64,000 nt of DNA, taken from Patescibacteria group bacterium (GTDB taxonomy: Bacteria > Patescibacteriota > UBA1384 > XYA2-FULL-43-10). This document shows positions 2,732 through 63,946 of this stretch, in pieces; positions within the stretch are counted from its first letter, which is position 1; every line of letters starts with the position of its first letter. The stretch lies in NCBI GenBank assembly GCA_041674405.1, contig JBAYVT010000004.1, forward strand, positions 74,599-138,598, in the 5' to 3' direction. The translations under genes and the position numbers were made by a program. The notes beneath the pieces were generated by a model. The model did not search any database and was not told where the DNA came from. It worked only from the letters and a program-made list of their open reading frames with translations.

Positions 2732-2747
2732 ATCCCCTCCGAATACA

Positions 2748-3398
2748 CTATTTGTTCAGCTCGTCTAGATATTTTGTAACATTTTCATTGGTCGGCTCGG
2801 CTAATCTTGCTTTTTGCCAGGATTCTTCTGCTTTCCCCCTGTAAAATTCTCTTGATTCACCCGATATCTCTGCGTCCTTCATCATATAATAATTTGCAAG
2901 CCCCAGATATATCCACGCATCAGCGTAATTTTCGTCCATTTCGGTTGCGGTGGTCGCAACGAGTATTGCCAGGTCGGGTCGGCCGTTTTCAATGTAGGCT
3001 TTAGCATCTTTTACAGCTTCCGATTCATTTTGCGGAACCTTGTTGGCTTCTGAGAGATCGTTCAGCGCATCTATGTCATTAATCTCTCTGAAAAATGGCT
3101 CTAGTTTTGTAATGTCCTTTTCGCTTTCCCTGGCTATAATTGTCCGTTCGTTAGCCTTGCTGCTACCTGCCAGGAACGCTGCTTTGCGGTATTCGACTAA
3201 TGCAGATATAAATTTGCGATTTTTCAAAAAATCATCGCCCGAAGTTATATATTTATTTGTACCCGAAACTCTGGCGGGGCTTAAGGCGAAATACAAAATA
3301 ACAATCAGCAACAAGCCTATAACTGACCACAAAGCTGCTTTTTTCCATGATTTCTCCCCGAAATTATGCGGAGGTTTACGGGTGGCTACCTTTTTCAA
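2748..3398 (-). CDS. Membrane-anchored protein (216 aa) with a single N-terminal TM helix and a probable helical, TPR-like extracytoplasmic domain.
   Basis: N-terminal basic stretch followed by the hydrophobic segment WSVIGLLLIVILYFAL. The rest is helical, K/E/A-rich sequence. Confidence 0.5.
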   Translation of the reverse strand: MKKVATRKPPHNFGEKSWKKAALWSVIGLLLIVILYFALSPARVSGTNKYITSGDDFLKNRKFISALVEYRKAAFLAGSSKANERTIIARESEKDITKLEPFFREINDIDALNDLSEANKVPQNESEAVKDAKAYIENGRPDLAILVATTATEMDENYADAWIYLGLANYYMMKDAEISGESREFYRGKAEESWQKARLAEPTNENVTKYLDELNK

Positions 3399-3401: not shown

Positions 3402-4223
3402 TTATCTCACAAAATAAACTATAACGACAACCAGCGCCACGATAACCCTATACCAAGTAAATATGGCGTAATTTCCCTTTTGCAAATATTGTAACAGATA
3501 TTTTATTGCAATAAAACCAAATATTGCTGAAGTTAAAATTCCGACAAAAAATCCGGCATCCAACATCCCGGCATCAATGTGGCGAAATTTAAATAGCGAG
3601 GTTCCTAGCATGATTGGGGCGGCCAGAAGGAATGAAAATCTGGCGCTATCTGGCCTGGTCAAGCCTATTGCCCTTCCTGCGGCCATCGTTGATCCGGCTC
3701 GTGATACTCCGGGTACAATCGCCAACATTTGGGCCAAACCAACTAGTAATCCGAGCTTATAGTTTACAGCTTTTAGCTGATAGCTTCTTTTTGCATATCG
3801 ATCAATCATCCAAATAATAATACCAAAGACGGCTAGATTGATAGCAACAAGAAGCGGATTACGAAAAATCGTTTCGGCATTTTTTTCCAAAAGCACTCCG
3901 GCAATAGATCCCGGAATTGTGGCAACAATGATGATCCAAAGAAGATTCTTTGGATAGCTGCTAGCTGTTAGCTGTAAGCTGTCAGCTTTTTCCGACCCGC
4001 TCTTACTTGAGAATGCCGATCGGAAAATATTCACCCAGTCTTTCCAAAAAAAGGCGATGATAGCGAGGAGTGTGCCGAAATGCAGCGCGACGTCAAATGT
4101 TAATCCGAAATCTTGCCAGTGAAAAAGCCATGGCGTAAGAACAAGGTGCGCGGACGAGGAAATCGGTAAAAACTCGGTGATTCCTTGAATAATTCCAAGG
4201 ATTGCAGGCTGAATTATGCTCAT
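3402..4223 (-). CDS. uppP: Undecaprenyl-diphosphatase (UppP/BacA).
   Basis: MSIIQPAILGIIQGITEFLPISSSAHLVL... is the canonical BacA N-terminal motif. It is polytopic. The start is taken at MSIIQ (4223), which overlaps the upstream PAP2 stop as ATGA. The protein carries an in-frame heptamer-repeat insert (SLQLTASSYP). Confidence 0.85.
   Translation of the reverse strand: MSIIQPAILGIIQGITEFLPISSSAHLVLTPWLFHWQDFGLTFDVALHFGTLLAIIAFFWKDWVNIFRSAFSSKSGSEKADSLQLTASSYPKNLLWIIIVATIPGSIAGVLLEKNAETIFRNPLLVAINLAVFGIIIWMIDRYAKRSYQLKAVNYKLGLLVGLAQMLAIVPGVSRAGSTMAAGRAIGLTRPDSARFSFLLAAPIMLGTSLFKFRHIDAGMLDAGFFVGILTSAIFGFIAIKYLLQYLQKGNYAIFTWYRVIVALVVVIVYFVR
3954..3987. repeat. (GCTGTNA)n heptamer repeat, in frame in uppP.
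   Basis: atagctgctagctgttagctgtaagctgtcagct. Confidence 0.75.
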
Positions 4224-4806: not shown

Positions 4807-4815
4807 TGGTATAAT
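4807..4815 (+). promoter_or_regulatory. Extended -10 promoter (TGgTATAAT) placed so that transcription would begin at or beside the recombinase ATG, giving a leaderless mRNA.
   Basis: TGGTATAAT lies at 4807-4815. ATGs follow at 4814 and 4823. There is no room for a Shine-Dalgarno sequence. The divergent PAP2 start is only 18 bp away. Confidence 0.45.
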
Positions 4816-5884
4816 GGTGGCTATGAAAGACCTTTTTAGGTTGAAGCGAGAATTTTTAGAATACTGCGAGATTGAAAAGGGCCAATCTCTTTTGACGATT
4901 GAAAATTATGACAGATACCTGTCTCGTTTTTTAACTTGGCTAAAAACCGAGAAAACTCAAAACTCAATCCGCCAACCGGCGGGCAAAAGCCAAAACAAAG
5001 GGAGTGCACTACAGACTACAGACTACAGACTACGGACTTCTGATATTGACCAGGAGATTATTCGCAAATATCGTCTATACATCAATCGTTTGCAGGGGGC
5101 GGATGGCAGAGAACTTAAGGCAACGACACAGAATCACCATATTTTGGCCTTGAGGGCATTTTTGCGCTACCTTTCCTTTTCCGGTGAGAAGGTAATTTCG
5201 CCGGAAAAATTGACATTGGCCAAAACCGGAGATCGGGAAGTGAGTTTTCTGAACAAGGAGGAATATCTGCGCCTGCTTGATGCCCCGAATACCGCGAATT
5301 TGAATGGCCTACGTGATAAATCAATGCTTGAGCTTTTGTTTTCGACCGGTTTGCGCGTTTCTGAGCTTTGCGGCCTCAAGCTGGGGCAGATGAATTTTGA
5401 CAAAGGAGAAATTGCTGTTCTGGGAAAAGGGAAAAAACTGAGAGTAGTATTCTTGTCAGATGTTACGCTCAAATATTTGGCCGACTATCTTGTAAACCGC
5501 AAAGTTTTGAAAATTATCGCTGACGACAGCTCAAGTCAATTGCAATATTTTATTTCAGAAACTTATAAAGATGATCCAGTTTTTCTTTCAAATCGCAAGA
5601 ATCCAATCAAACCCAGAGCAGTGGAGCGCCTGGTACAGAAATATGCCAAAGTTGCCGGAATTACTAAAACAGTCACGCCCCACACTCTTCGCCACACTTT
5701 CGCAACTGACTTGCTCGGTGCTGGTGCTGACATTCGTAGCGTTCAATCGCTTTTAGGGCATTCTAATATTTCCACGACTCAAGTCTATACTCACGTCACC
5801 GACAAACACCTGAGGGAGATACACCAGAAATTCCACGATCGATCTCGTATAGAAGTAGATGAGGAACAAAAAAATTCGGGTTAA
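4814..5884 (+). CDS. Tyrosine site-specific recombinase of the XerC/XerD-like integrase family.
   Basis: C-terminal catalytic box HTLRHTFATDLLGAGADIRSVQSLLGHSNISTTQVYTHV (R..HxxR..Y). The N-terminal core-binding domain carries the in-frame insert ...ALQTTDYRLRTSD... from the (GACTACR)n repeat. An alternative start is ATG 4823. Confidence 0.85.
   Translation: MVAMKDLFRLKREFLEYCEIEKGQSLLTIENYDRYLSRFLTWLKTEKTQNSIRQPAGKSQNKGSALQTTDYRLRTSDIDQEIIRKYRLYINRLQGADGRELKATTQNHHILALRAFLRYLSFSGEKVISPEKLTLAKTGDREVSFLNKEEYLRLLDAPNTANLNGLRDKSMLELLFSTGLRVSELCGLKLGQMNFDKGEIAVLGKGKKLRVVFLSDVTLKYLADYLVNRKVLKIIADDSSSQLQYFISETYKDDPVFLSNRKNPIKPRAVERLVQKYAKVAGITKTVTPHTLRHTFATDLLGAGADIRSVQSLLGHSNISTTQVYTHVTDKHLREIHQKFHDRSRIEVDEEQKNSG
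5007..5032. repeat. (GACTACR)n heptamer tandem repeat inserted in frame into the recombinase gene.
   Basis: cactacagactacagactacggact encodes LQTTDYRLRT. Confidence 0.8.
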
Positions 5885-5911
5885 ACCGAATTTTTTAATA
5901 TCCAATATTGA

Positions 5912-6082
5912 TTAATTGTTATCTGGTATATCATTCCACATATCGAATACTTCTACCTGGCAAATCGCCACCTCTTTGGGGCAGTTGGCGATTTCTGTTT
6001 TGATCTGCTCGATACGATGAAAATTCGAATTCACAGGAATTTTTGTTTTTGTATCTTCAATTTTATTTACTTTGAGTTTCAT
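5912..6082 (-). CDS. Small hypothetical protein (56 aa). It is below the ORF-track length cutoff.
   Basis: Hand translation gives MKLKVNKIEDTKTKIPVNSNFHRIEQIKTEIANCPKEVAICQVEVFDMWNDIPDNN. I recognise no family. Confidence 0.3.
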   Translation of the reverse strand: MKLKVNKIEDTKTKIPVNSNFHRIEQIKTEIANCPKEVAICQVEVFDMWNDIPDNN

Positions 6083-6106
6083 TTTTGTTTTGCCTTCGGC
6101 AATTAC

Positions 6107-6187
6107 TTATGAACATAAGAACTTATGAACGGAAGAACAATTTTATGTTTCGGTTCTTCAGTCCTTCGGTTCTTCAGTTTCCGAAGG
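6107..6187. repeat. Intergenic block of direct and inverted short repeats (TTATGAAC..AAGAAC twice; CGGTTCTTCAGT twice). It shares the 11-mer GAAGAACCGAA / TTCGGTTCTTC with the ValRS in-frame insert.
   Basis: Read directly. GAAGAAC...GTTCTTC can form a 7-bp hairpin. Confidence 0.7.
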
Positions 6188-6202
6188 GATTAGATCATTA
6201 TA

Positions 6203-6240
6203 ACAAAAACGACACCCCGTGTCAACCAGTGACACGGGGT
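6203..6240 (-). terminator. Rho-independent terminator for the minus-strand GC-rich membrane-protein gene.
   Basis: 11-bp perfect stem accccgtgtca / tgacacggggt with loop accag. On the minus strand it is followed by cgtttttgtta. Confidence 0.7.
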
Positions 6241-6296
6241 ACAGCTCTCGTCTATTCCGTTGTGGCCCAGTCTTGAGCTTGGCGGTTGGTTGGGGG

Positions 6297-6791
6297 TTAT
6301 CCGGCACCCCCGTTCCAGTGTTTACCCAGCTCCGGAGGCTCCTCCGGCTGGATGTGCGGCTGTCCGGCGGGCGTCGGCGGATCAGCTCGTCTTGTTCGTT
6401 TGCGACAAGCAAGGACAACGATCGCCAGCCCAGCCAGAATAGCCAAGGTAACTCTGTAGTTCCCTGCCAGGCCCAGAGTGATCACCAGGGCCCCGATACA
6501 CCACAGCATTGCCTTAGCCGACATCTCCCTGCTCTGTTCCCTGCTATTGTCGATACCACGGCTACTGCCCATGGTCGCTCCTTTCCTCAATTTCGGAATT
6601 CGCTTCAGAAGTTGCGAGAGTGCCAGTGGCCAATTTGTCCGAAGGACAACAAATATGGCTGCTGCGCAGGCAAGGGCAAAAACGATCATTGCGAAGTAGG
6701 CAAGAATCCCGATCGAGTTGAGTGTCCCGATCGTGAATATTGCTGTGAACGTTCCGACAAGCAACCCACTCGACGATTTTTGTGGCAACAA
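6297..6791 (-). CDS. Hypothetical membrane protein (164 aa, about 4 TM) lying in GC-rich cassette A.
   Basis: Hydrophobic helices (LLVGTFTAIFTIGTLNSIGILAYFAMIVFALACAAAIFVVL; AMLWCIGALVITLGLAG; LAILAGLAIVVLAC). The opposite-strand ORFs are Arg/Ser-rich and implausible. The terminator orientation matches this strand. Confidence 0.5.
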   Translation of the reverse strand: MLPQKSSSGLLVGTFTAIFTIGTLNSIGILAYFAMIVFALACAAAIFVVLRTNWPLALSQLLKRIPKLRKGATMGSSRGIDNSREQSREMSAKAMLWCIGALVITLGLAGNYRVTLAILAGLAIVVLACRKRTRRADPPTPAGQPHIQPEEPPELGKHWNGGAG

Positions 6792-6880
6792 TTTCGACCT
6801 CCTGAGGGACGGGCTTGTTTGTTCGCAGAAACAAAAAACACAACGAGCAACAACTAGAAATCCAGGGTGTTACCGCTGTG

Positions 6881-8209
6881 TCACCTGTCTTCTCCAAACA
6901 AACGGATAAGTTCCTCACGTACGACCTTGCGGTCGGAGTAGGGAACGAACTCATGTAAGCCGACTGCCATCACTTCTTCTGCTCCTTTTCCAGTAACGAC
7001 AACAACATCATTTTTTTTTGCTTCCTTTATCGCTTTGTGAATAGCTTGTTTTCGATCGAGGACTTTCCAATAATTTCGATTCAACCGCCACTGATGTTTC
7101 TTGCCGCCGCGGAAAATACCCTCTGAAACCTGCTCGATAATATCGGCAGGATTCTCGTCATACGGATCTTCGTCGGTAAAAATCACCAGATCAGCATAGT
7201 GTCCGGCAAGCGCGCCCATGATCGGGCGCTTAGTCTTGTCTCTATGGCCGGTGGCACCAAGCACGGCGATCAATCGCCCACCAGTTTTTTGTATGCTATC
7301 AGTCACTGTTTCATAAACATTTTTCAGGGAATCGGCGTTGTGGGCATAGTCCACGATTACGGTAAAGTCTTGTTTTTTACTTACTTTAATCGATTCCATT
7401 CTCCCGGTAACTCCGGACATATTCTCAAGTCCCATCCTAGTCTTTTCTGTATCGAGTCCCAAGGCAAGACCGACAGAAAATGCGGCTAAAGCATTTAGAA
7501 CGTTAAAAATTCCTGGCATTTTCAAGTTGATTGTGGACTGGCCATTGTCGTATGCGGCAGTGAAAGTAACGCTCTCGGGAGAGGTCAATATTTTTCTTGC
7601 AACCGCTCCGTGATCAACCTGCTTCTTAACTGAGTACAAAAATTTTTCGGAGGCTGGGAGAGAGTAGAATTTATTCCATTCTGCGTCATCACTATTGATA
7701 ATAAATTTTGCTTTTGGGTGATCGCGGAAAAGTTTAAGTTTGGCGTTCAGATAGTTCTCTTTGGTTTTGTGATACTCCATGTGCTCGTGCGAAAGGTTGG
7801 TGTAAACCAACACATCGAAATCGATTCCATAAATCCTGTTTTGGTCGATCGCTTGTGAAGTCACCTCTAAAATTGCATATTCACACTTATTGGCCACCGC
7901 TCTTTTCAAAAATCTTTGAATCACATCGGAGGGAGGAGTTGTTACCCATCGATCTTTGGTTTTGTGCGCGGTTATTTCGTCGTTTATTTTCGTATTGATG
8001 GTTGTTTCCATCGCGTTTTTGATGCCATTGGCATCGAGAACAGAAGCGATCATATTACAAACGGTGGTTTTCCCTTTGGTACCGGTAACGCCGATTACTT
8101 TGAGTTTTTTCGCCGGGTGGCCATATTTAAAACCGGCCCATGAAGCCTCAGCTCTGTGGAGCTTGTTTTTCGTTTTCTGCGATAAAATTTTAGATATTAG
8201 TCGTTTCAT
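6881..8209 (-). CDS. murE: Mur ligase, most likely MurE (UDP-MurNAc-L-Ala-D-Glu:diamino-acid ligase), with a shortened N-terminal domain.
   Basis: P-loop VIGVTGTKGKTT, the Mur-ligase middle domain, and VDYAHNADSL, which matches the MurE DYAHTPDAL block. At 442 aa it is about 50 aa shorter than typical MurE. Confidence 0.7.
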   Translation of the reverse strand: MKRLISKILSQKTKNKLHRAEASWAGFKYGHPAKKLKVIGVTGTKGKTTVCNMIASVLDANGIKNAMETTINTKINDEITAHKTKDRWVTTPPSDVIQRFLKRAVANKCEYAILEVTSQAIDQNRIYGIDFDVLVYTNLSHEHMEYHKTKENYLNAKLKLFRDHPKAKFIINSDDAEWNKFYSLPASEKFLYSVKKQVDHGAVARKILTSPESVTFTAAYDNGQSTINLKMPGIFNVLNALAAFSVGLALGLDTEKTRMGLENMSGVTGRMESIKVSKKQDFTVIVDYAHNADSLKNVYETVTDSIQKTGGRLIAVLGATGHRDKTKRPIMGALAGHYADLVIFTDEDPYDENPADIIEQVSEGIFRGGKKHQWRLNRNYWKVLDRKQAIHKAIKEAKKNDVVVVTGKGAEEVMAVGLHEFVPYSDRKVVREELIRLFGEDR

Positions 8210-8214
8210 ATTTT

Positions 8215-8281
8215 ATTGCTAAATTGCTGTATTGCTAAATTGCTTACACAACAATTTGACAATTTAACCATTTAACAATTT
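8215..8281. repeat. Tandem 7-8 bp repeats in the murE upstream region (ATTGCTAAATTGCTGTATTGCTAAATTGCT; CAATTTGACAATTTAACCATTTAACAATTT).
   Basis: Read directly. They sit directly 5' of the murE ATG at 8209 on the minus strand. Confidence 0.6.
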
Positions 8282-9194
8282 ATCTTCGGATTTTTTCCGC
8301 AATTTTAAATAATTGGTATTCGAATGGTTTATAAACCTTGTCGTAACTGCCCATAATTTTAACTTCATCTCCACCGAACTGCTTTTTGAATCTGGTAACT
8401 CCTGCCCATAAGTGGCGCGGGTTGTCATCCGGCGCAATTCCGAAGAAGTCGTATATTTTGCAGCCGCGGCTTATGGCATTTTGAATCATTTCCCATTGTA
8501 ATTTGTATGGCGCCATTAGGTTCTTGAATTCGTCACTTGAGGCACCAAAAAGATAGATTGCTGAGCCCTGATAAATGCTGCAGATTGCCGCTGCTAAGAC
8601 GACTTCCTCACCTTCAATTTCGGCATAAGCTTCGAACAACTCACAATATCCCTTGGGTTCAAGAAAGTCAAGCAACTTCTGAAAATATTCCTCACCTCTA
8701 AATGTAATTCCATGTCTCTTGCCTGTCTTCTCGTAGAGCTTGTAAAAATTACTGGCATCTCTTGTTTTTCTCACCAGAATATTATTTTTTTCGGCAACCT
8801 TGATGTTATAGCGGCCTTTCTGTTTCATCTCACCAAGAAGGTCATCATTCGATTTGGAGAGGTCAAGAACTAGGGTGTGTTCCGGCTGCATCTCCTCGAA
8901 AGATTTAATTAGTCCATAGTCTGTAGTCTGTAGTTCATAGTCTGTGGGGATATCGAATTCAATCCGGTAGAAAATTGCATTTTCCTCTTTTGCTATTTGA
9001 AAGGTTTGGTTCCAGTAGCTTTGGTTTTTGACATTTGAAATTTGATCTTGACTCGCCATCGGCGAGTATAACATCGACCTTCCCATTGGCAGGTCTTTTT
9101 TGAGCACCAAAATATCCTCGACGCGAAAGGATTTCGAATAGCCTGTAGCGAGTTTAAATTTCTCCCATTCGGGAGATTGAAATATAGAACTCAT
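8280..9194 (-). CDS. FemAB-family peptidoglycan interpeptide-bridge aminoacyltransferase (FemX-like).
   Basis: The N-terminus ...FQSPEWEKFKLATGY... matches the FemAB SWEWAEFK block. The length is right. It sits next to murE. It carries the in-frame insert PTDYELQTTDYGLIKS from a reverse-orientation (GACTACR)n repeat at 8911-8948. Confidence 0.65.
   Translation of the reverse strand: MSSIFQSPEWEKFKLATGYSKSFRVEDILVLKKDLPMGRSMLYSPMASQDQISNVKNQSYWNQTFQIAKEENAIFYRIEFDIPTDYELQTTDYGLIKSFEEMQPEHTLVLDLSKSNDDLLGEMKQKGRYNIKVAEKNNILVRKTRDASNFYKLYEKTGKRHGITFRGEEYFQKLLDFLEPKGYCELFEAYAEIEGEEVVLAAAICSIYQGSAIYLFGASSDEFKNLMAPYKLQWEMIQNAISRGCKIYDFFGIAPDDNPRHLWAGVTRFKKQFGGDEVKIMGSYDKVYKPFEYQLFKIAEKIRR
8911..8948. 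repeat. (GACTACR)n heptamer repeat, reverse orientation, in frame within the FemAB-like gene.
   Basis: agtccatagtctgtagtctgtagttcatagtctgtgg. Confidence 0.8.
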
Positions 9195-9207
9195 TACCTA
9201 AATATTA

Positions 9208-9546
9208 TCACTCTTGCCTCTTGCTGCCAATAAAAAAGAGGGCCTCCTGACCCGGTGGGACTGGGTCGGAGGCGGTGCGGGTTGCGGCTATCCTGAGAGA
9301 ATATCGCATCCCCGGGGAGGCTCCTTGCGATGGCCATGGATTGCCTTCATTGCCGTCAGGCGGTAGCTCTGTCCATGTATCTTCGACATCGCTTCGTGGT
9401 GACGGATGCGCCACATAACGCGCTCCGTCATACCTGGCTTGGGTAAATCGGAATGGGCTCCGACCACCAAACCAAGCGTACATCCCAATCTCTGATTTGC
9501 TGTCTTTATCATGTCCACCACTCCTCCAGAAGTTCTGTGATTCCAA
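9208..9546 (-). CDS. Hypothetical protein (112 aa) in GC-rich cassette B.
   Basis: Open frame in a GC-rich block. I recognise no motifs. Confidence 0.3.
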   Translation of the reverse strand: MESQNFWRSGGHDKDSKSEIGMYAWFGGRSPFRFTQARYDGARYVAHPSPRSDVEDTWTELPPDGNEGNPWPSQGASPGMRYSLRIAATRTASDPVPPGQEALFFIGSKRQE

Positions 9547-9597
9547 GCTAGTGTAAAATTACTATAATGTCAAGCTCTGCATTAGATAATTTGGCAT

Positions 9598-9635
9598 ATA
9601 AAAAATTAAGCCCCCACCTAGCGTGTAGGTGGGGG
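9598..9635 (-). terminator. Rho-independent terminator on the minus strand.
   Basis: 10-bp stem cccccaccta / taggtggggg with loop gcgtg, preceded on the plus strand by aaaaaattaa (a U-tract on the minus strand). Confidence 0.6.
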
Positions 9636-9815
9636 TGCGACTTGCGGGACCATCTCGATGCTGTTGCGCGGCACTTCGTGCCGTCTCAGTGTACCGCCAT
9701 CGAGAGCGGCGCGGACGACAGCTTTGCCGCCTTTGTATTCGATGAGAGTACCACCAGTGTACTTGCCGTCTTTCTGCCTGATTCTCACGCGCGCGTTGAT
9801 GGGCATGCCTTTCAC
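9618..9815 (-). CDS. Small hypothetical protein (65 aa) in GC-rich cassette B. It might be a DUF2945/TUDOR-like small beta protein; that is a guess.
   Basis: MKGMPINARVRIRQKDGKYTGGTLIEYKGGKAVVRAALDGG... Its stop codon lies inside the terminator hairpin. Confidence 0.35.
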   Translation of the reverse strand: MKGMPINARVRIRQKDGKYTGGTLIEYKGGKAVVRAALDGGTLRRHEVPRNSIEMVPQVAPPPTR

Positions 9816-9898
9816 CTCGTGGCAGTATTTCAGTCCAACTCATTGTTAATATATCAAAAAAATATGCAGAGTAAACAGCAACACCGCAGGCGTGTTGC

Positions 9899-10270
9899 CT
9901 ACGGTGCGCGGTCGCTTCGAGGCGAAGTTGCCCAGTCTACACAGCCCAGGAGGCCTGCGTGGACGAGCGGGCGAATAGCCCCTGCCAACTTGGTCGTCGT
10001 CATCGGGTCGCGTGGAATTCCATCCCAGGAAATGATGGTTCCGTTTCTGAAGTAGCGGGGCGTTTCCTTACCATCCCTGTTATAGGTGGTGACTTTGACG
10101 ATCCCGCATGGCTCCAGATTGTAACCGCCATTGCCTGTGATTCTGTCCACATCTGCCAACATGGTTGCGATTAGGCGTCGCTCTTTGGAAGACAGACAGC
10201 TCCTTCGCTTTAGCACCATGAGGTGCAAGGTGATAACCTCCTTCTTCGACAGAATTCCAATCCTCTGCAT
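9899..10270 (-). CDS. Hypothetical protein (123 aa) in GC-rich cassette B.
   Basis: Open frame. LSSKERRLIATMLA faintly resembles a LuxR/sigma region-4 HTH. Confidence 0.3.
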   Translation of the reverse strand: MQRIGILSKKEVITLHLMVLKRRSCLSSKERRLIATMLADVDRITGNGGYNLEPCGIVKVTTYNRDGKETPRYFRNGTIISWDGIPRDPMTTTKLAGAIRPLVHAGLLGCVDWATSPRSDRAP

Positions 10271-10355
10271 TATGGTTTTAGATAATTGATTGAGTCAACC
10301 CAACAATTTTCCGAGTGGTAAAAAGTTTGGTTTTGTGCTAGAATTTTTCAGTTAA

Positions 10356-11570
10356 ATGACAAAGAAAAACCTAAAAATTTTAGCAATCGAAACAAGCTGT
10401 GATGAGACGGCTGCTGCTGTGATTTCTGAAAATCGAAATAAACCAGAAATACTATCGAACATTGTTTCTTCACAAATTGATCTTCATGCTAAGACCGGCG
10501 GAGTAGTGCCGGAAGTTGCATCGAGAGCGCATATGGAGGCGATATTGCCTGTCGTAAGTGAGGCGCTTGTACAGGCAAAACTCAAAAATCCAGAAAAACT
10601 ACGGACTACGGACTACAACCTACAAACTGGTCTGTCGGATATCACCCATATTGCCGTAACTGCTGGGCCAGGGCTGATCGGCTCACTCTTGGTTGGGTTC
10701 AACACGGCAAAATCGCTGGCTTATTCGCTGGATTTGCCAATCATTCCAATCAATCATATAGAAGGACATGTGTACTCCGCATTCGCGGAGCAATTTCCAA
10801 TTCCCAATTTCCAATTTCCAATTCTAGCATTGACTGTGTCTGGCGGCCATAGCTCGTTAACTTTGATGAAAGATCACGGAATCTATGAAAATTTGGGTCA
10901 GACTTTAGATGATGCGGCGGGAGAAGCTTTCGACAAGGTTGCGAAACTTCTCGATCTTGGTTATCCAGGAGGACCGGTGGTTTCTAAACTCGCGGACGAG
11001 TTAAGAAACAAAGTCAAAAATCAAAGATCACCCGTCTCGGCCGAGGCACGATCCGAGGTCGGAAAGATCAAAAATAATAAAGAAAAAAATAGCAATTTAA
11101 CAATGAAACAATTTAACAACGAGATTGTATTTCCCCGTCCGATTCTGAATGACGGCACATTCAATTTCTCATTTTCCGGATTAAAAACCGCGGTTTTGAC
11201 GGAGGTGGTCAAACTAAGGACTAAGGACTACGAACTACCGACTAGTGAAATCTGTGCGGCATTTGAAGATTCGCTTACCGATGTGCTTACGACAAAAACA
11301 ATGAGAGCGATTGATAAATTCAAACCAAAAGGTTTGATTCTTGCCGGAGGAGTAGCGGCCAACAGCTATCTGCAAGCCGAACTTCAACGGAAGGTTAATG
11401 AATACAATCAGACTTTAAAGAAAAGAGATCAGATTAATTTTTATATGCCTCCGCGGGATATGACAGGTGACAATGCGGCGATGATCGGTCTTGCAGCTTA
11501 CTATCATATATCGAGGGGAGATGTAAAAGGGTGGGACGAGATCGAAGTCGATTCAAATTTTAAGCTCTAA
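10356..11570 (+). CDS. tsaD: tRNA N6-adenosine threonylcarbamoyltransferase TsaD (Kae1/YgjD) carrying three in-frame low-complexity inserts.
   Basis: ILAIETSCDETAAAVI..., metal-binding His motifs (HIEGH), and C-terminal GGVAANSYL. At 404 aa it is longer than typical (about 340) because of the inserts KLRTTDYNLQTG, FPIPNFQFPIL and KLRTKDYELPTS. Confidence 0.85.
   Translation: MTKKNLKILAIETSCDETAAAVISENRNKPEILSNIVSSQIDLHAKTGGVVPEVASRAHMEAILPVVSEALVQAKLKNPEKLRTTDYNLQTGLSDITHIAVTAGPGLIGSLLVGFNTAKSLAYSLDLPIIPINHIEGHVYSAFAEQFPIPNFQFPILALTVSGGHSSLTLMKDHGIYENLGQTLDDAAGEAFDKVAKLLDLGYPGGPVVSKLADELRNKVKNQRSPVSAEARSEVGKIKNNKEKNSNLTMKQFNNEIVFPRPILNDGTFNFSFSGLKTAVLTEVVKLRTKDYELPTSEICAAFEDSLTDVLTTKTMRAIDKFKPKGLILAGGVAANSYLQAELQRKVNEYNQTLKKRDQINFYMPPRDMTGDNAAMIGLAAYYHISRGDVKGWDEIEVDSNFKL
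10598..10627. repeat. (GACTACR)n heptamer repeat, in frame in tsaD (first copy).
   Basis: aactacggactacggactacaacctacaaact. Confidence 0.8.
10791..10824. repeat. (TTCCAAT)n heptamer repeat, in frame in tsaD, encoding FPIPNFQFPIL.
   Basis: caatttccaattcccaatttccaatttccaattc. Confidence 0.8.
11211..11245. repeat. (GACTAMG)n heptamer repeat, in frame in tsaD (second copy).
   Basis: aaactaaggactaaggactacgaactaccgactag. Confidence 0.8.
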
Positions 11571-11578
11571 AACGGCGA

Positions 11579-11618
11579 ACGCCACCCCGATGTTCTGGGG
11601 TGGCGCGCTTTGTTCTTG
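11579..11618 (+). terminator. GC-rich hairpin terminator between tsaD and the convergent GC-rich gene. It may work in both directions.
   Basis: Stem gccacccc / ggggtggc with loop gatgttct, followed by gcgctttgttctt. Confidence 0.5.
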
Positions 11619-11631
11619 GTGGTGGCCGCTA

Positions 11632-12147
11632 CTAGGCGACCAACCGCAGGGTCGTGTCGAAGCCGGAAAGCCAGGTCGCGACCTGGTCGTAGGCCTCTCT
11701 GGCCCCGTTGTCGAAGTCCTCAGGCCGCAGGATCTGGTCGCTGGGGACCATTATCCGCGACTGCAGCTCCGCTTCCGGAACGCCGGTTGCCCGCTCTGTG
11801 GCCTCGAAGGGCGCTCCTGCTAGGAAGTCCTCGATGGTTAACGGGCCGCCGGAAGTGACATCCCCGAACTGCTTGGATGAGATGACCACATAGCCGCCAG
11901 TGGCGAGCGTGGCCATCATGTCGATGTGGGTCCGAGCAACGTTCCTCTCGGTGACGTAGTAGAGCTCGGCGACGCGGACGTCGCGGGCCATCACAAAGTT
12001 GGGAATGTTCCCCGGAACATGGCGCGGCGCCAGGCGGACCGGAGTGAACGGCGCGTCCTCAAGTGCCTTTGCGAGAAGGCGCCCATGGCCGGGGTTGCCG
12101 GCCACGATGAGCAATGTGGCTTGGTTTATCACAAGCATTACCTCCAT
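11632..12147 (-). CDS. Hypothetical protein (171 aa) in GC-rich cassette C, possibly a Rossmann-like or CoA-binding fold (weak call).
   Basis: MLVINQATLLIVAGNPGHGRLL... The sequence looks protein-like and third codon positions are GC-rich. Confidence 0.4.
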   Translation of the reverse strand: MEVMLVINQATLLIVAGNPGHGRLLAKALEDAPFTPVRLAPRHVPGNIPNFVMARDVRVAELYYVTERNVARTHIDMMATLATGGYVVISSKQFGDVTSGGPLTIEDFLAGAPFEATERATGVPEAELQSRIMVPSDQILRPEDFDNGAREAYDQVATWLSGFDTTLRLVA

Positions 12148-12299
12148 GGGTTTGTTCCGTCCTGCTCGAGCATTTTATATCATAAAATAAACAAATTGTC
12201 AATCGTAAATACGAATAATTGTTCATCTGGTGCGTTTTTATTGGATTCAGCCTCTTTTTGTGTTATTCTTAAGCACGAAACTGGTTAATTTCGGAAGTT

Positions 12300-14549
12300 A
12301 TGTCAAAAGAATTCGCCAAAACCTGGGACTCGAAGAAGTTTGAAGAGGATTTATACCAAAACTGGGAAAAATCCGGCTATTTCAAGCCTGAATTGAACAT
12401 GCCCGAAAATCCAAAATATGATCGGGCGCTCGAAGGCAAACCATTCGTCATCCCAATTCCGCCGCCGAATGTCACCGGCAAGCTTCACATCGGCCATTCG
12501 TTATTCATCACAATTCAGGATGTCATGATCCGCTTCCATCGCATGCTTGGCGAGCCCACGCTTTGGATCCCCGGCACCGATCACGCCGGTATCGCTACGC
12601 AGACGGTCGTGGACAAAGCCTTACAAAAAAAGGGAATTAAGCGCCACGAAATTGGCCGTGAGAAATTTGTCGAAGAAGTTTGGAAGTGGAAAGAAGAATA
12701 CGGCGGTATTATCACCTCACAACTCAAACGAATGGGTGCTTCCTGCGACTGGTCGCGCGAGCGTTTTACCCTCGACGAAGGTTTATCCAAAGCTGTGAAA
12801 GAGGCATTTGTCCACCTATACGAGAAGGGATTGATCTACCGCGGCGAATATATCGTCAATTGGTGCCCGAAATGCGGCACGGCGATCGCGGATGACGAGA
12901 TGGAGCACGAAGAACAAACCGCAAAATTGTACTATTTCAAATACGACAAAAACTTTCCGATCACCATAGCAACTACCCGGCCAGAAACCAAACTTGGAGA
13001 TACGGCTGTGGCGGTCAATCCAACCGACAAGCGTTATGAGCAGTACATTGGCAAAGAATTCGATGTTGATATCGATGGCGTTAAGCGCAAGATCAAAATT
13101 GTTGCCGATCGCTCTATTGATATGAAATTCGGTACCGGCGCAGTCGGAATTACGCCTGCACACTCGGCTATCGACTGGAAAATCGGTGAAGTTAATGATC
13201 TTCCGATTGTCAAAGTCATCGACGAACGAGCAAAAATGACCGCCGAGGCCGGCAAATACGAGGGAATGAAGGTGCTCGAAGCCCGAGAAAAACTAGTTGA
13301 ATATCTGAAAGGCGAAACACTCCTGGAAAAAGAGGAGCCGATCACAAATAATTTGAGCGTCTGCTACCGCTGCAACACGGCTATAGAGCCGATTCCGTCT
13401 CTACAGTGGTTTGTGAGTATGCGCCCACTGGCAGAAAAAGCTAAAGCGGCCGTAACCTCCGGCGCTATCAAAATTATCCCGAAAAGATTTGAGAAGAATT
13501 ACAATCAGTGGATGGACAATATCCGCGACTGGTGCATCTCCCGCCAGCTTTGGTGGGGACACAGAATCCCGGTTTGGTATCGCAAACAGGAAAATCTCAA
13601 ACCTCAAACCTCAAATCTCAAACCCGAAGACATCTATGTCGGAAAAGAACCGCCAGCTGATATTGAGAGTTGGATTCAAGACGAAGATGTGCTCGATACC
13701 TGGTTTTCCTCGGCGCTTTGGCCGTTTTCTTCACTTGGTTGGCCAGAGAAAACCAAAGATCTGCAGTATTTCTATCCGGCAACCGTTCTCGAAACCGGAT
13801 ATGACATTCTCTTTTTCTGGGTCGCCCGAATGGTAATGATGGGACTTGAGCTTACTGATTCGATTCCATTTGAGAATATTTACCTCCACGGCTTGGTTCG
13901 CGATGAGAAAAATAGAAAGATGTCCAAGTCTCTCGGCAATGCGCTCGATCCGCTCGATATGATCGATAAATACGGCACAGATGCTGTCCGGATGGGTCTT
14001 GTGGTCGGCACTACCCCCGGGCTTGATATTCCTGTGGGTGAGCACAAGCTTAAGAATTATCGCAATTTCTCGAACAAAATCTGGAATGCCTCGCGCTTCG
14101 TTTCTCTTCGAGTTTCCGAAGGTGATCTGGCCTCGGGAGAAATTGGAGATGAGAAAATCGAGAACTTAAATATCGACCAATCAATTTTAACCGACGCCGA
14201 CAAAAAAATTCTCGAAGCACACGAGGAAATCAAAAAGCGCGTGACAAAAGACCTCAAGGAGTTCAAATTCTCTGGCGCCGGCGAAGGGCTATATGAGTAT
14301 TTCTGGCACAATTTCTGCGATATCTACATAGAAGCTGCTAAAGGGCAGCTCCAAACTGAAGAACCGAAGAACCGAAGAACCGAAGAACATTCAGAAAACA
14401 CAAAAAAAATCCTGCTCAAAGTTCTGTCTGAATCTTTACAGATGCTGCATCCGTTCGTTCCTTATGTCACCGAAGCTGTCTGGCAGGAACTACGCGAAAT
14501 TTATCCAAAACTTTCCGAATCGATCATGATCTCCAAGTGGCCTATGTAA
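12300..14549 (+). CDS. valS: Valine--tRNA ligase (ValRS), a short form lacking the C-terminal coiled-coil, carrying two in-frame repeat inserts.
   Basis: Class I HIGH region PPPNVTGKLHIGHS, the KMSKS motif KMSKSLGN, a CP1 editing domain and zinc-knuckle cysteines. The inserts are ENLKPQTSNLKPED and EEPKNRRTEEH. Confidence 0.8.
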   Translation: MSKEFAKTWDSKKFEEDLYQNWEKSGYFKPELNMPENPKYDRALEGKPFVIPIPPPNVTGKLHIGHSLFITIQDVMIRFHRMLGEPTLWIPGTDHAGIATQTVVDKALQKKGIKRHEIGREKFVEEVWKWKEEYGGIITSQLKRMGASCDWSRERFTLDEGLSKAVKEAFVHLYEKGLIYRGEYIVNWCPKCGTAIADDEMEHEEQTAKLYYFKYDKNFPITIATTRPETKLGDTAVAVNPTDKRYEQYIGKEFDVDIDGVKRKIKIVADRSIDMKFGTGAVGITPAHSAIDWKIGEVNDLPIVKVIDERAKMTAEAGKYEGMKVLEAREKLVEYLKGETLLEKEEPITNNLSVCYRCNTAIEPIPSLQWFVSMRPLAEKAKAAVTSGAIKIIPKRFEKNYNQWMDNIRDWCISRQLWWGHRIPVWYRKQENLKPQTSNLKPEDIYVGKEPPADIESWIQDEDVLDTWFSSALWPFSSLGWPEKTKDLQYFYPATVLETGYDILFFWVARMVMMGLELTDSIPFENIYLHGLVRDEKNRKMSKSLGNALDPLDMIDKYGTDAVRMGLVVGTTPGLDIPVGEHKLKNYRNFSNKIWNASRFVSLRVSEGDLASGEIGDEKIENLNIDQSILTDADKKILEAHEEIKKRVTKDLKEFKFSGAGEGLYEYFWHNFCDIYIEAAKGQLQTEEPKNRRTEEHSENTKKILLKVLSESLQMLHPFVPYVTEAVWQELREIYPKLSESIMISKWPM
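13592..13625. repeat. Heptamer repeat (ACCTCAA-like), in frame in valS.
   Basis: aatctcaaacctcaaacctcaaatctcaaaccc. Confidence 0.8.
14358..14388. repeat. Octamer repeat (GAAGAACC) x about 3.5, in frame in valS.
   Basis: gaagaaccgaagaaccgaagaaccgaagaac. Its reverse complement also occurs in the intergenic repeat block at 6151-6187. Confidence 0.8.
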
Positions 14550-30819: not shown

Positions 30820-30846
30820 AAATCACTAATAAAGTCAAGGACATTT

Positions 30847-55452: not shown

Positions 55453-56569
55453 TGGGCGCTTTATTGGCGTGGGCGAATCTATCTCCCGCTACACGCTTGA
55501 AATAGTTCAAGGCATCTTAAAATTGGATCAAGAGCACGAATACACTCTCTTAATCCGCCCGCAAGGCGAAAAGTTTATAGCTGACAACTTACAGCTGAAA
55601 GCTAAAAATTTTCGTACAAAAGTTTTAGATATTCCTCACTACAGCTTCAAAGAGCAAACAGAGCTTCTCAAATATTTAAATTCTGAAAAATTTGATCTTG
55701 TGCACTTTACCCAATTTAACCATCCGATTCGTTACAAAGGAAATTATGTGATCTCGGTGCATGACCTAACCCTTCTTGGGCATCTGCATCGCATGAATAT
55801 TGTAAAAAGGCTGGGGTTTCGGGCTGTTATGAAGTCGGCAATAATGGATTCAAGAAAAATTATTACAATTTCGAACACAACCAAGGACGATCTTGTTGAA
55901 ACATATAGGATTGATCCGGACAAAATTGCTATTACATACCTCGGCGTTGACAACAAGTATAATTCAAATTTCAAATCTCAATCCGCCAGCTGGCGGACAA
56001 AAATTAGGGATTTTAAAGAAAAGTATAAGACGGGAGAGAAATACATTCTCTATACAGGAATGTGGAAGCGGCACAAGAATCTTCTGCGTATGTTCGATGC
56101 TTTCGAGCGAGCGAAACTTTCTGATGTAAAGCTTGTGCTGGTCGGCAAAATTGATAAAGAAGAGCCGGAAATCTTGAAACGAATTGATGAAATCAATTCC
56201 AAGCAAAAAATTATTGTAACGACCGGATTTGTTGAGGAGGAGGAACTTCCCATTGCTTATGCTGGGGCAGTAGCTTATTGCATTCCCTCGCTCTCCGAGG
56301 GGTTCGGCCTTCCACCACTCGAGGCAATGGCTTGTGGTACGCCTGTAATTTCTTCAGCAGTATCGGCGATGCCGGAAATTCTCGGCAAGGCGGCGTTCTA
56401 CTTCGACCCGTACGATATTGAAGATATGTCGATGGCGATGAAAACAATCGTCGAAGATGAAAAATTGCAAAAAGAACTATCGCAAAAGGGGTTGAAGTGG
56501 GTAGCGCGCTACGATTGGGAGAAGACCGCAAAAGAAACTCTGGATGTGTACAAAAGTTTATTGAAATAA
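55436..56569 (+). CDS. GT4 (GT-B fold) glycosyltransferase.
   Basis: C-terminal [20 protein letters not shown], the E-x7-E region of retaining GT4 enzymes. Confidence 0.75.
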
Positions 56570-56574
56570 TTGTT

Positions 56575-63850: not shown

Positions 63851-63880
63851 TCAAGTTTGTGTTGGATGAAAGAAAGTAAT

Positions 63881-63946
63881 CCGTAGTCTGTGACCTGTGA
63901 AGTAAAAGAATTTTTTAAGGACTACGAAGACAGACTACAGACTAAT
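63881..63946. repeat. Two intergenic copies of the (GACTACR)n heptamer repeat family, in opposite orientations.
   Basis: ccgtagtctgtgacctgtgaag ... ggactacgaagacagactacagactaat. Confidence 0.7.

What the first reader, a model, noticed from the sequence alone, without database searches (positions are those of the whole stretch)
5007..11245. One heptamer-repeat module, (GACTACR)n, is inserted in frame into four unrelated conserved proteins, always yielding L-[QR]-T-[TK]-D-Y-x-L-x-T
The same repeat family occurs in four genes and once between genes. It is in the recombinase (5007-5032, ALQTTDYRLRTSD), in TsaD twice (10598-10627, KLRTTDYNLQTG; 11211-11245, KLRTKDYELPTS) and in the FemAB-like gene in reverse genomic orientation but the same coding frame (8911-8948, PTDYELQTTDYGLIKS). 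Intergenic copies lie at 63881-63946. Three 7-bp units make 21 bp, so the frame is preserved. The insert is always read in the same frame, which implies either selection for a tolerated peptide module or a frame-aware insertion or expansion mechanism. It behaves like a tiny mobile in-frame insert. I do not recognise it as a described element.
Basis: seen in the sequence. Interest (0 to 1): 0.75.

Follow-up and report, generated by a model that had tools for sequence, protein, structure and literature searches.

The report
Heptamer tandem repeats inside housekeeping genes
Short runs of a 7-base repeat (GACTACR) sit inside three housekeeping genes of an uncultured Patescibacteria genome; they belong to a known kind of bacterial simple repeat, and the "same reading frame" follows from 7 not being divisible by 3 rather than from a frame-aware mobile element.

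Summary
The (GACTACR)n runs are real and far beyond chance: 12 hits against 0.03 expected. They lie at four sites in three genes (Xer-like recombinase, FemAB-like, TsaD twice), not four genes, plus a weak inverted pair between genes.

The "same frame" argument carries no information. All three sense frames of a 7-bp repeat encode the same cyclic heptapeptide (DYRLQTT). The antisense strand has TAG in every frame.

GACTACR is one of several heptamer families here. The window holds 12–18 period-7 arrays, depending on the match threshold, against about 0.1 expected at the stricter one. All lie in ORFs and most are 3–5 units long.

Syntenic relatives carry arrays at the same codon positions, with the same length and register. 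The unit changes genome by genome: CTACAGA, CTACAAG, CTAGAAA, CTACAAC. So these are old arrays evolving in concert, not recent insertions. At the Fem site, 118 orthologues show 7-residue periodicity (z = 15).

The same unit occurs in at least 120 loci across many phyla, often as inverted hairpin arrays.

Verdict: these are heptanucleotide simple-sequence arrays, like cyanobacterial STRR, LSSR and TAACTGA repeats, and unusual mainly in being intragenic. Slippage in permissive loops is the inferred mechanism. How one unit comes to occupy many loci remains unexplained.

The parts
5006..5040 (+). (GACTACR) array, about 4.5 units, in the Xer-like tyrosine recombinase gene (4814-5884); encodes ALQTTDYRLRTS
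   Evidence: the orthologue in L124 has LQTTDYKL at the same codons
8910..8944 (-). (GACTAYR) array, about 5 units, in the FemAB-like gene (8280-9194, minus strand); encodes TDYELQTTDYGL
   Evidence: orthologous arrays with other units in L124, L125, L126, L199 and L200; lag-7 periodicity in 118 orthologues; in the AF2 model it is the segment connecting strands E73-83 and E106-111
10596..10625 (+). (GACTACR) array, about 4 units, TsaD site 1 (gene 10356-11570); encodes KLRTTDYNLQT
   Evidence: lies in an insertion of about 15 residues relative to solved TsaD structures and in a hypervariable loop among orthologues; lower-confidence loop in the AF2 model, block mean pLDDT 58 for residues 81-90
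11212..11239 (+). (GACTAMG) array, 4 units, TsaD site 2; encodes KLRTKDYELP
   Evidence: L124 has KLRTMDYKLPT at the same codons with no indel; end of helix 274-289 plus the following loop in the AF2 model
63876..63945 (.). intergenic pair of two-unit GACTACR copies in inverted orientation (63876-63888 minus, 63933-63945 plus), 57 bp apart, downstream of ORF 63310-63849
   Evidence: only a weak hairpin (-15.5 kcal/mol, z = -1.85); the same inverted layout forms strong hairpins in other phyla
3953..3987 (-). different heptamer family (ACAGCTN) x5 in the UppP/BacA gene; encodes ADSLQLTASSY
   Evidence: L124 has ADSYKLEASSY at the same codons
10789..10826 (+). heptamer family (CAATTTC) x5 in TsaD; encodes QFPIPNFQFPI
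   Evidence: FPISNFQFPI recurs in many TsaD orthologues
13590..13625 (+). heptamer family (AAACCTC) x5 in ValRS (12300-14549); encodes ENLKPQTSNLKP
   Evidence: the orthologous array in L125 carries a frameshift equal to one unit
9025..9049 (-). heptamer family (AAATNTC) in the FemAB-like gene; encodes QDQISNVK. Related arrays are at 11009-11031 (TsaD), 55959-55984 and 61974-62009
14352..14391 (+). 8-bp array (GAACCGAA) x4.7 in ValRS; encodes TEEPKNRRTEEH. A reverse-orientation copy lies between genes at 6149-6180

Best explanation
The GACTACR runs are heptanucleotide simple-sequence repeat arrays, the same kind as cyanobacterial STRR, Mrazek's LSSR and the TAACTGA repeats. They are one of several unit families in this Patescibacteria genome.

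Shown:
- They are DNA-level 7-bp tandem arrays, and their peptide is a by-product.
- A 7-bp unit cycles through all three codon phases every 21 bp, so every sense register encodes the same heptapeptide.
- The antisense orientation is removed from genes because it carries TAG in every frame.
- The arrays occupy variable connecting segments of conserved enzymes.
- They are positionally orthologous across related genomes, and their unit sequence changes in all copies together.

Inferred:
- The arrays are expanded and homogenised by replication slippage or unequal or ectopic exchange between units.
- In essential genes only net changes of three units (21 bp) or length-neutral conversions survive. 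This would explain why most arrays stay at about 3-5 units.
- Permissive loops retain arrays for long periods.

Not explained by my data or by the literature I read: why the period is 7 (and sometimes 8), and how one unit comes to occupy many loci.
For: Arithmetic: (GACTACA)3 reads DYRLQTT, TTDYRLQ or LQTTDYR in the three sense frames. The antisense strand has a stop in each frame.

Period specificity: 12 period-7 arrays against 0.1 expected and 3 period-8 arrays against 0. There are none at periods 6 or 9-15. At a slightly looser threshold there are 18 arrays, all inside ORFs in a stop-free reading and most 3-5 units long.

Several unit families occur in the window and in relatives.

Orthology and concerted change: the Fem-site units in register are W CTACAGA, L124 CTACAAG, L125 CTGAAAG, L126 CTAGAAA, L199 CTACAAC and L200 TTATTCA. 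W and L124-L126 have no indel at this site. The same holds at TsaD-1, TsaD-2, Xer and BacA. Four-fold degenerate sites are only 39% identical between W and L124, while units within an array are 76-93% identical. That argues for ongoing homogenisation.

Clade-wide signal: in 118 Fem orthologues lag-7 residue identity is 18.2%, against 3-8% at other lags (z = 15). Segment length ranges from 11 to 29 residues with a mode of 14, which is the window's value. The 120 TsaD orthologues contain 86 exact runs with 7-residue period.

Slippage signature: the ValRS gene of L125 changes frame by the equivalent of one lost unit inside the orthologous array.

Structure: the array-encoded residues lie in loops or at helix ends.

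The same unit lies inside RecG, UvrA and an NRPS gene in other phyla.

Literature: heptanucleotides are the commonest long SSR class, with polymerase slippage proposed as the cause. The orientation-and-stop logic and 7-nt indels between strains are described in PMC4679880 and PMC4692102.
Against: No copy-number variation was seen. Three assemblies from different samples are identical over 1.7-21 kb, and the 90%-identity protein clusters have single members. Slippage is therefore inferred, not observed, apart from the unverified L125 frameshift.

Simple slippage does not predict a sharp preference for period 7. It also does not predict the same unit at four loci in one genome.

The Fem and TsaD-1 arrays change unit together within a genome: both GACTAC in W, both AAGCTA in L124 and L125. 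That hints at inter-locus homogenisation or a genome-specific unit preference. Only three genomes support this.

In essential genes, single-unit slips are lethal intermediates. Homogenisation must therefore go through 21-bp steps or conversion, and neither was demonstrated.
Confidence: 0.7

Rival explanations
1. The arrays are functional nucleic-acid elements. Their 7-nt periodicity would be maintained by selection because a trans-acting factor reads tandem heptamers in DNA or mRNA. Candidates include an OB-fold or cold-shock type protein that binds one heptamer per monomer, or a nucleoid protein exploiting 3 units = 2 helical turns. The peptide would be incidental.
For: Arrays persist at orthologous positions although synonymous sites are saturated. 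Unit number is narrow, mostly 3-5; Rehm 2015 reports a four-unit preference for GGGNATC repeats. The same unit recurs at several loci in one genome and in many phyla, often as inverted hairpin-forming arrays. Fem and TsaD-1 units co-vary within genomes. MacGregor 2015 cites CspB binding to heptamer repeats.
Against: Unit sequences differ widely between sites and between close genomes, so no conserved recognition sequence exists. In viral contigs GACTACR arrays (13 loci) are no commoner than composition-matched control heptamers (22 and 29 loci). Arrays sit at arbitrary positions inside unrelated genes. A one-unit frameshift in L125 ValRS looks like instability rather than function. The intergenic copy in the window folds weakly.
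Confidence: 0.12
2. A tiny mobile module, possibly frame-aware, has inserted itself into several genes, in the way Rickettsia palindromic elements or MITEs do.
For: The same sequence family lies at four intragenic sites and one intergenic site. TsaD site 1 lies in a lineage-specific insertion. The same unit is scattered across many phyla, which could suggest horizontal spread. A real mini-element with flanking 7-8-bp duplications does exist in this gene set.
Against: There is no indel relative to the closest syntenic genome at three of the four sites. Units change in register, which shows in-place evolution. The arrays have no inverted termini, no target duplication, and no fixed length or boundary. 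The frame argument is void. The Fem site carries periodic sequence in most of 118 orthologues.
Confidence: 0.05
3. The arrays are accumulated footprints, or preferred landing pads, of small hairpin elements that duplicate a 7-bp (sometimes 8-bp) target. Repeated insertion and excision would leave tandem copies of the target. This would explain why only periods 7 and 8 occur.
For: A GC-rich hairpin element of about 32 bp sits in the window's TsaD at 11031-11062, flanked by AAGATCA/AAAGATCA, inside an (AAANATC)n array. A near-identical element sits in L125's FemAB flanked by AATGTCA units, and the window's FemAB has the empty array. Periods are restricted to 7 and 8.
Against: Only two copies of the element were found in all held Patescibacteria loci. 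GACTACR arrays show no such insert. Heptamer arrays are common in phyla and viruses where this element was not seen. Targeting of pre-existing arrays explains the two cases equally well.
Confidence: 0.06
4. The peptide L-Q/R-T-T-D-Y is a selected protein module, such as a binding or modification motif, acquired convergently by several enzymes.
For: A similar polar peptide is found in three enzymes and in proteins of other phyla.
Against: Orthologues carry entirely different peptides at the same positions: SYKLEAE, NYKLETS, TTYNLQP, IHNSSLI. DNA periodicity extends over positions that are synonymous in one phase or another. The same DNA unit also lies between genes. The peptide phase differs between sites.
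Confidence: 0.03
5. The arrays are an assembly or contamination artefact. One candidate source is the 16S primer 806R, which begins GGACTAC.
For: GGACTAC is the 5' end of a widely used primer (my own knowledge).
Against: Three assemblies from different samples give identical sequence. The arrays keep long ORFs of conserved enzymes open. Orthologous arrays exist in independent metagenomes.
Confidence: 0.01

Closest known systems
Long simple sequence repeats (LSSR) with 7-bp units (Mrazek, Guo & Shah 2007, as summarised in PMC4679880 and PMC4692102)
   Same: Tandem heptanucleotide units are over-represented relative to other periods, and the distribution across genomes is sporadic. Polymerase slippage was proposed as the source. 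The period-7 excess is reproduced here.
   Different: That survey reported that units not divisible by three are rarely found in coding regions. Here all 18 arrays lie in ORFs of a genome that is about 89% coding, many of them in housekeeping enzymes.
Cyanobacterial STRR (short tandemly repeated repetitive) heptanucleotides, Mazel et al. 1990 (own knowledge; mentioned in PMC4692102)
   Same: 7-bp units, a few unit families per genome, each dispersed over many loci, with unknown function and unknown dispersal mechanism.
   Different: STRR arrays are mostly intergenic, often longer, and have other units (CCCCAGT, TTGGTCA, CAACAGT). The organism here is a small-genome Patescibacterium.
TAACTGA direct repeats of marine Beggiatoaceae, cyanobacteria and Bacteroidetes (MacGregor 2015, PMC4679880)
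   Same: One favoured heptamer recurs at many loci and in distant phyla. One orientation has stops in all frames and the other encodes a repeating heptapeptide (LSVISYQ). A minority lie inside ORFs in the open orientation. Indels between strains come in 7-nt increments.
   Different: TAACTGA sets are mainly just upstream of start codons, and intragenic ones are at protein peripheries. Here the arrays are internal to conserved enzymes and positionally conserved among orthologues.
GGGNATC G-quadruplex-forming heptamer repeats of Xanthomonas and Nostoc (Rehm 2015, PMC4692102)
   Same: Heptamer arrays with a preferred small unit number (four), dispersed genome-wide.
   Different: Those are G-rich, G4-forming and under-represented in coding regions. 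GACTACR has no G-tracts and is intragenic here.
Rickettsia palindromic elements (RPE) and intragenic REPs (own knowledge; REPs inside genes in PMC3733652)
   Same: Repetitive DNA tolerated in frame inside conserved protein genes, in segments that accept extra residues.
   Different: RPE and REP are palindromic, of defined length and (putatively) mobile. The intragenic arrays here are direct tandem repeats with no palindrome or target duplication, and they show no presence/absence polymorphism against relatives.
Phase-variable contingency loci with 7-bp units (for example Haemophilus hmw1A promoter repeats, PMC8262952)
   Same: Heptanucleotide tandem repeats whose unit number changes by slippage.
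   Different: Those are long perfect tracts in promoters or 5' ends of surface-protein genes and vary between isolates. Here the arrays are short and imperfect, sit in essential genes, and are identical in three samples.
Tandem repeats of Borg elements that create disordered protein regions (PMC9879509)
   Same: DNA-level tandem repeats arise inside ORFs and add polar low-complexity peptide segments.
   Different: I recall that Borg repeat units inside ORFs are divisible by three, but I did not read the paper here. The present units are 7 bp, so only three-unit steps keep the frame.

Membership tests
Heptanucleotide SSR arrays (LSSR / STRR-like) | Head-to-tail copies of a 7-bp unit, three or more units | tested here: met
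   TRF and my own scan find 2.7-4.4 copies at the four sites; units listed.
Heptanucleotide SSR arrays (LSSR / STRR-like) | Longer or more frequent than composition predicts, and specific to period 7 | tested here: met
   12 arrays against 0.1 expected at period 7; none at periods 6 or 9-15. The same bias holds in relatives and in 120 loci from other phyla: 431 period-7 arrays against 9-26 at periods 6, 8 and 9.
Heptanucleotide SSR arrays (LSSR / STRR-like) | One unit family dispersed over several unlinked loci of a genome | tested here: met
   GACTACR at five places in 64 kb; several contigs per genome in other MAGs.
Heptanucleotide SSR arrays (LSSR / STRR-like) | Unit-number change by slippage (indels in 7-nt increments) | tested here: inconclusive
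   No variation among three samples. One orthologous array in L125 has a frameshift equal to minus one unit. Segment lengths vary among orthologues.
Cyanobacterial STRR / TAACTGA-type repeats specifically | Predominantly intergenic location | tested here: not met
   18 of 18 arrays in the window lie in ORFs.
Mobile in-frame mini-element (RPE / MITE-like) | Terminal inverted repeats or palindromic body, and a defined length | tested here: not met
   The intragenic copies are pure direct repeats of variable length, 3-5 units.
Mobile in-frame mini-element (RPE / MITE-like) | Target-site duplication flanking the element | tested here: not met
   None at the four sites.
Mobile in-frame mini-element (RPE / MITE-like) | Presence/absence polymorphism at orthologous sites | tested here: not met
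   No indel against L124 at the Xer, Fem and TsaD-2 sites. Only TsaD-1 is absent in some distant orthologues.
Phase-variable contingency locus | Repeat tract whose length differs between isolates and switches a surface or virulence gene | tested here: not met
   Identical in three samples. The hosts are TsaD, a Xer-like recombinase and a FemAB-like enzyme.
GTAG-tagged REP / RAYT system (PMC3733652) | Palindromic unit tagged by GTAG, associated with a RAYT transposase gene | tested here: inconclusive
   Inverted (GTAGTCC)n...(GGACTAC)n hairpins exist in other phyla. The window's intergenic pair folds weakly. The intragenic arrays are not palindromic. I did not search for a RAYT gene.

The most novel reading that the evidence does not exclude
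In Patescibacteria, and possibly more widely, families of heptamer arrays would be kept alive inside essential genes by an active genome-wide DNA-level process. That process could be inter-locus conversion or a factor that templates or recognises a genome-specific heptamer. It would homogenise units across unlinked loci, which would explain why four loci in this genome share GACTACR while the Fem and TsaD-1 arrays of relatives share AAGCTA. The arrays would also serve as landing pads, or be the footprints, of hairpin mini-elements of about 32 bp with 7-bp target duplications. That would make them a new class of self-maintaining intragenic repeat rather than passive slippage products.
Probability: 0.12. 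Interest if true: 0.7.

Novelty: new variant of a known kind. Interest (0 to 1): 0.4.

Why it matters
Heptanucleotide repeats have been known in bacteria since 1990, and known to be over-represented since 2007. Neither the preference for 7 bp nor the spread of one unit to many loci has an accepted explanation.

Here the arrays lie inside conserved enzymes, so the flanking codons give exact positional orthology. That makes it possible to follow the same array through dozens of genomes. Doing so shows that all its units change together while length and register stay fixed. This turns an old descriptive puzzle into something measurable: rates of homogenisation, 7-bp versus 21-bp steps, and intra-locus versus inter-locus exchange.

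There is also a practical consequence. Many lineage-specific "insertions" and odd low-complexity peptides in Patescibacteria proteins (NPKSEIR, FPISNFQ, ISNSKFL, LRTTDYG and others) are translations of such arrays. They should not be read as functional motifs, and arrays can cause apparent gene splits such as ValRS in L125.

Tried and rejected
1. Frame bias as evidence. Rejected because all sense frames are equivalent.

2. Rfam and tRNA scans of the window found nothing.

3. Solved-structure alignments for the Xer-like and FemAB-like proteins. The alignments start downstream of the arrays, so they say nothing about insertion.

4. Metagenome scan for close TsaD relatives. Only 8 loci came back and none was close enough to add to the synteny set. 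I used the look-up of encoding contigs instead; one of those look-ups returned no DNA.

5. Whether GACTACR is special among heptamers. In viral contigs it is not: 13 loci against 22 and 29 for two composition-matched controls. The figure of at least 120 bacterial loci therefore has no control.

6. Intergenic copy as a terminator-like hairpin. Weak: z = -1.85.

7. Scan for more hairpin mini-elements flanked by heptamer duplications. Only the two known cases turned up, plus one doubtful hit at 28299-28362.

8. Strain-level copy-number variation. The three available assemblies are identical and the protein clusters have single members.

9. Elhai 2008 (small dispersed repeats in Nostoc) could not be retrieved. 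The comparison with it rests on memory.

10. Primer or assembly artefact. Rejected.

11. One literature query failed on term length.

Full report
**1. The observation**

The window comes from a Patescibacteria MAG. TsaD is found with 100% identity on a 158-kb ENA contig and on two Logan contigs, and NCBI names it as a Patescibacteria protein.

GACTACRGACTAC with up to one mismatch occurs 12 times against 0.03 expected; none of 100 shuffles reaches 12. The hits form arrays at these positions:
- 5006-5040 in a Xer-like recombinase
- 8910-8944 on the minus strand in a FemAB-like gene
- 10596-10625 and 11212-11239 in TsaD
- two two-unit copies in inverted orientation between genes at 63876-63888 and 63933-63945

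The quoted peptides are correct. That makes four intragenic sites in three genes, not four genes.

**2. The frame argument**

7 is not a multiple of 3, so a heptamer array passes through all three codon phases every 21 bp.
- (GACTACA)3 translates to DYRLQTT, TTDYRLQ or LQTTDYR in the three sense frames. These are one cyclic peptide.
- The reverse complement contains TAG in each frame.

Any copy that survives inside a gene must therefore be in the sense orientation, and it must encode this peptide whatever its register. No frame-aware mechanism is implied. MacGregor (2015, PMC4679880) set out the same logic for TAACTGA repeats.

**3. One family among many**

- At 85% match over three units, the window has 12 period-7 arrays against 0.1 expected. 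It has 3 period-8 arrays against 0, and none at periods 6 or 9-15.
- At a slightly looser threshold there are 18 period-7 arrays. All lie inside ORFs in a stop-free reading, and most are 3-5 units long.
- The crude coding fraction is 0.89, so this is neither enrichment nor depletion in genes (p = 0.13).
- Other heptamer units in the window:
  - ACAGCTN in UppP (ADSLQLTASSY)
  - CAATTTC in TsaD (QFPIPNFQFPI)
  - AAACCTC in ValRS (ENLKPQTSNLKP)
  - AAATNTC in FemAB, TsaD, a GT4 glycosyltransferase and a VanW-domain protein
- There is also an 8-bp unit GAACCGAA, in ValRS and between genes.

**4. Insertions or ancestral?**

Syntenic loci from relatives were recovered: L124, L125 and L126, then L199 and L200.

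Between the window (W) and L124 there is no indel at the Xer, Fem, TsaD-2 or BacA arrays; TsaD is 73% identical over aligned positions. L124 has the same unit at Xer (LQTTDYKL) and at TsaD-2 (KLRTMDYKLPT). It has a different unit at Fem (TSYKLEAESWG), TsaD-1 (KLGANSLKLEA) and BacA (ADSYKLEASSY).

Written in register, the Fem-site units are as follows:

| Genome | Unit |
|---|---|
| W | CTACAGA |
| L124 | CTACAAG |
| L125 | CTGAAAG |
| L126 | CTAGAAA |
| L199 | CTACAAC |
| L200 | TTATTCA |

Each genome carries its own substitution in all units. Consecutive units are read in different codon phases, so one nucleotide change gives different amino-acid changes in each unit. Protein-level selection cannot explain the parallelism. 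This is DNA-level concerted evolution.

Four-fold degenerate sites of the four host genes are only 39% identical between W and L124, which is near saturation. Units within an array are 76-93% identical. The arrays are therefore not decaying relics of one old expansion.

Only TsaD site 1 is a true insertion. It is about 15 residues longer than solved TsaD structures, and the segment is absent from some Patescibacteria orthologues.

**5. Clade-wide picture**

- In 118 FemAB-like orthologues the segment between the conserved FYRxExD and FEEMQP motifs is hypervariable in sequence but periodic.
- Residue identity there is 18.2% at lag 7 against 3-8% at other lags, z = 15.
- Segment lengths run from 11 to 29 residues with a mode of 14, which is the window's value.
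- Typical segments are TTYNLQPTTYGF, IHNSSLIIHNS, IPNTKYQIPNT and KELSTFHFPLSTRNF.
- DNA from L199 and L200 confirms 7-bp units.
- The 120 TsaD orthologues contain 86 exact runs with 7-residue period, for example NPKSEIR, FPISNFQ, ISNSKFL and NLKFKIS. Their lengths range from 348 to 546 residues because of inserts at a few variable loops.

**6. Structure**

AF2 models place the array-encoded residues in connecting segments:
- TsaD 82-92 lies in a lower-confidence loop between helix 52-75 and strand 98-103.
- TsaD 286-296 covers the end of helix 274-289 and the following loop.
- TsaD 146-156 lies in a loop (mean pLDDT 79.5).
- Fem 84-97 lies between strands 73-83 and 106-111 (mean pLDDT 92.9).

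**7. Distribution beyond this lineage**

The hits come from Acidobacteriota, Planctomycetota, Bacteroidota, Chloroflexota, Actinomycetota, Verrucomicrobiota, Wolfebacteria, Rodentibacter and others, with several contigs per genome in some MAGs.

Those loci hold 431 period-7 arrays against 18, 26 and 9 at periods 6, 8 and 9.

Many copies are inverted arrays, (GTAGTCC)n-loop-(GGACTAC)n, about 57 bp apart. They form strong hairpins: L013 folds at -63.6 kcal/mol with z = -9.3. The window's intergenic pair has the same layout but folds weakly, z = -1.85.

Intragenic examples elsewhere include RecG (Wolfebacteria), UvrA (Caldilineaceae) and an NRPS adenylation domain.

In viral contigs GACTACR arrays occur in 13 loci. 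Two composition-matched control heptamers occur in 22 and 29 loci. The unit is therefore not special there. The same control could not be run on bacterial genomes.

**8. Stability**

Three assemblies from different samples are identical to the window over 21.2, 13.2 and 1.7 kb, so no copy-number variation was seen.

In L125, however, ValRS is called as two genes. The frame changes by the equivalent of one lost unit inside an (AAATCCG)n array that is orthologous to the window's (AAACCTC)n array. This could be a real slip, population heterogeneity or an assembly error. In any case the frame is not protected by any mechanism.

**9. Explanation and comparison with known systems**

The arrays fit the known class of over-represented heptanucleotide tandem repeats:
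- LSSR, from Mrazek 2007 as reported in PMC4679880 and PMC4692102
- cyanobacterial STRR (own knowledge)
- TAACTGA repeats
- GGGNATC repeats

They share several features with that class: a 7-bp unit, genome-specific unit families, many loci per family, recurrence of the same unit in distant phyla, and an unknown dispersal route.

They differ in three ways. They are overwhelmingly intragenic. They sit inside essential enzymes rather than at gene ends or upstream of start codons. They are positionally orthologous and evolve in concert.

The membership features of mobile mini-elements were tested and not met: inverted termini, target duplication, and presence/absence polymorphism. The same is true of the features of contingency loci.

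The mechanism I favour is slippage or unit exchange, filtered by frame, stop codons and loop tolerance. It is inferred rather than shown.

The period-7 preference remains unexplained. So does the sharing of one unit by several loci, including the co-variation of the Fem and TsaD-1 units within genomes. This leaves about 10-15% for a more active, possibly novel process.

**10. Verdict**

- Novelty: a new variant of a known kind.
- Interest is moderate (0.4). The main value is that in-gene orthologous arrays offer a tractable way to study how heptamer repeat families evolve.

Noticed in passing
L125:7560-7960 (orthologous to window 13590-13625): ValRS in this relative is called as two ORFs (6374-7681 and 7915-8676). 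The reading frame switches by the equivalent of one lost 7-bp unit inside an (AAATCCG)n array, at the position of the window's (AAACCTC)n array. It could be a real slip, population heterogeneity or an assembly error.
   Followed up: partly
window 11023-11070; L125:3448-3504: A GC-rich hairpin element of about 32 bp (CCCGTCTCGGCCGAGGCACGATCCGAGGTCGGA) is inserted in frame in TsaD (peptide RSPVSAEARSEVGK). It is flanked by AAGATCA/AAAGATCA direct repeats and lies inside a heptamer array. A near-identical element sits in the FemAB gene of L125, flanked by AATGTCA units, while the window's FemAB (9025-9049) has the empty array. This looks like a genuinely mobile mini-element with a 7-bp target duplication that lands in heptamer arrays. 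Only two copies were found.
   Followed up: partly
window 4952-4995: In the Xer-like gene, an (AAAACTC)2 array is followed by a small GC-rich palindrome (CCGCCAACCGGCGG). Together they encode KTQNSIRQPAGK, just upstream of the GACTACR array. L124 has different palindromic inserts at this place (DCHSEFISESNETLKQVQGDN).
   Followed up: no
L124:7576-8907 and 2020-3327; L199:1255-2817: Relatives carry longer in-frame GC-rich palindromic inserts in TsaD and in the recombinase. The peptides are of the type CHPRPDRGSNIVDSRLRGND and EYHPRPEAEGYPLGSGSNIVPDNPLVDSRLDARGPFQGGNDK. This is a second kind of repetitive DNA tolerated in the same variable loops.
   Followed up: no
window 6149-6180 and 14353-14390; also 8223-8285: 8-bp tandem arrays. 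TTCGGTTC lies between genes, and its reverse complement GAACCGAA lies inside ValRS (TEEPKNRRTEEH); the two match at 94% over 32 bp. Two more 8-bp arrays (ATTGCTNA, AACAATTT) lie in the MurE-FemAB spacer.
   Followed up: partly
window 9195-10355 and 11571-12299 (also about 30000-31000 and 56000-59000): GC-rich islands (0.51-0.60 against about 0.40 elsewhere) lie between conserved syntenic genes. They hold ORFs with no Pfam hit and show no similarity to the corresponding spacers of L124-L126. They appear to be genome-specific insertions.
   Followed up: partly
L013:845-945, L047:4995-5120, L061:885-1010, L042:3570-3740, L050:7690-7830: In Planctomycetota and Acidobacteriota the same heptamer forms inverted arrays, (GTAGTCC)n-loop-(GGACTAC)n. 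These fold into very stable hairpins (L013 at -63.6 kcal/mol, z = -9.3). They begin with GTAG, the tag of RAYT-associated REPs. I did not search for a RAYT gene.
   Followed up: partly
window Fem and TsaD-1 arrays compared with L124 and L125: The arrays at two unlinked sites change unit together. Both are GACTAC-type in the window, and both are AAGCTA-type in L124 and L125. Xer and TsaD-2 stay GACTAC-type in L124. This hints at inter-locus homogenisation or a genome-specific unit preference, but rests on three genomes only.
   Followed up: partly
window 5006-5040 and other GACTACR arrays: GGACTAC is the 5' end of the common 16S primer 806R, and its complement GTAGTCC lies in helix 24 of 16S rRNA (own knowledge). 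This is probably coincidence, since a 7-mer has roughly an 18% chance of occurring somewhere in a 1.5-kb RNA on either strand.
   Followed up: no
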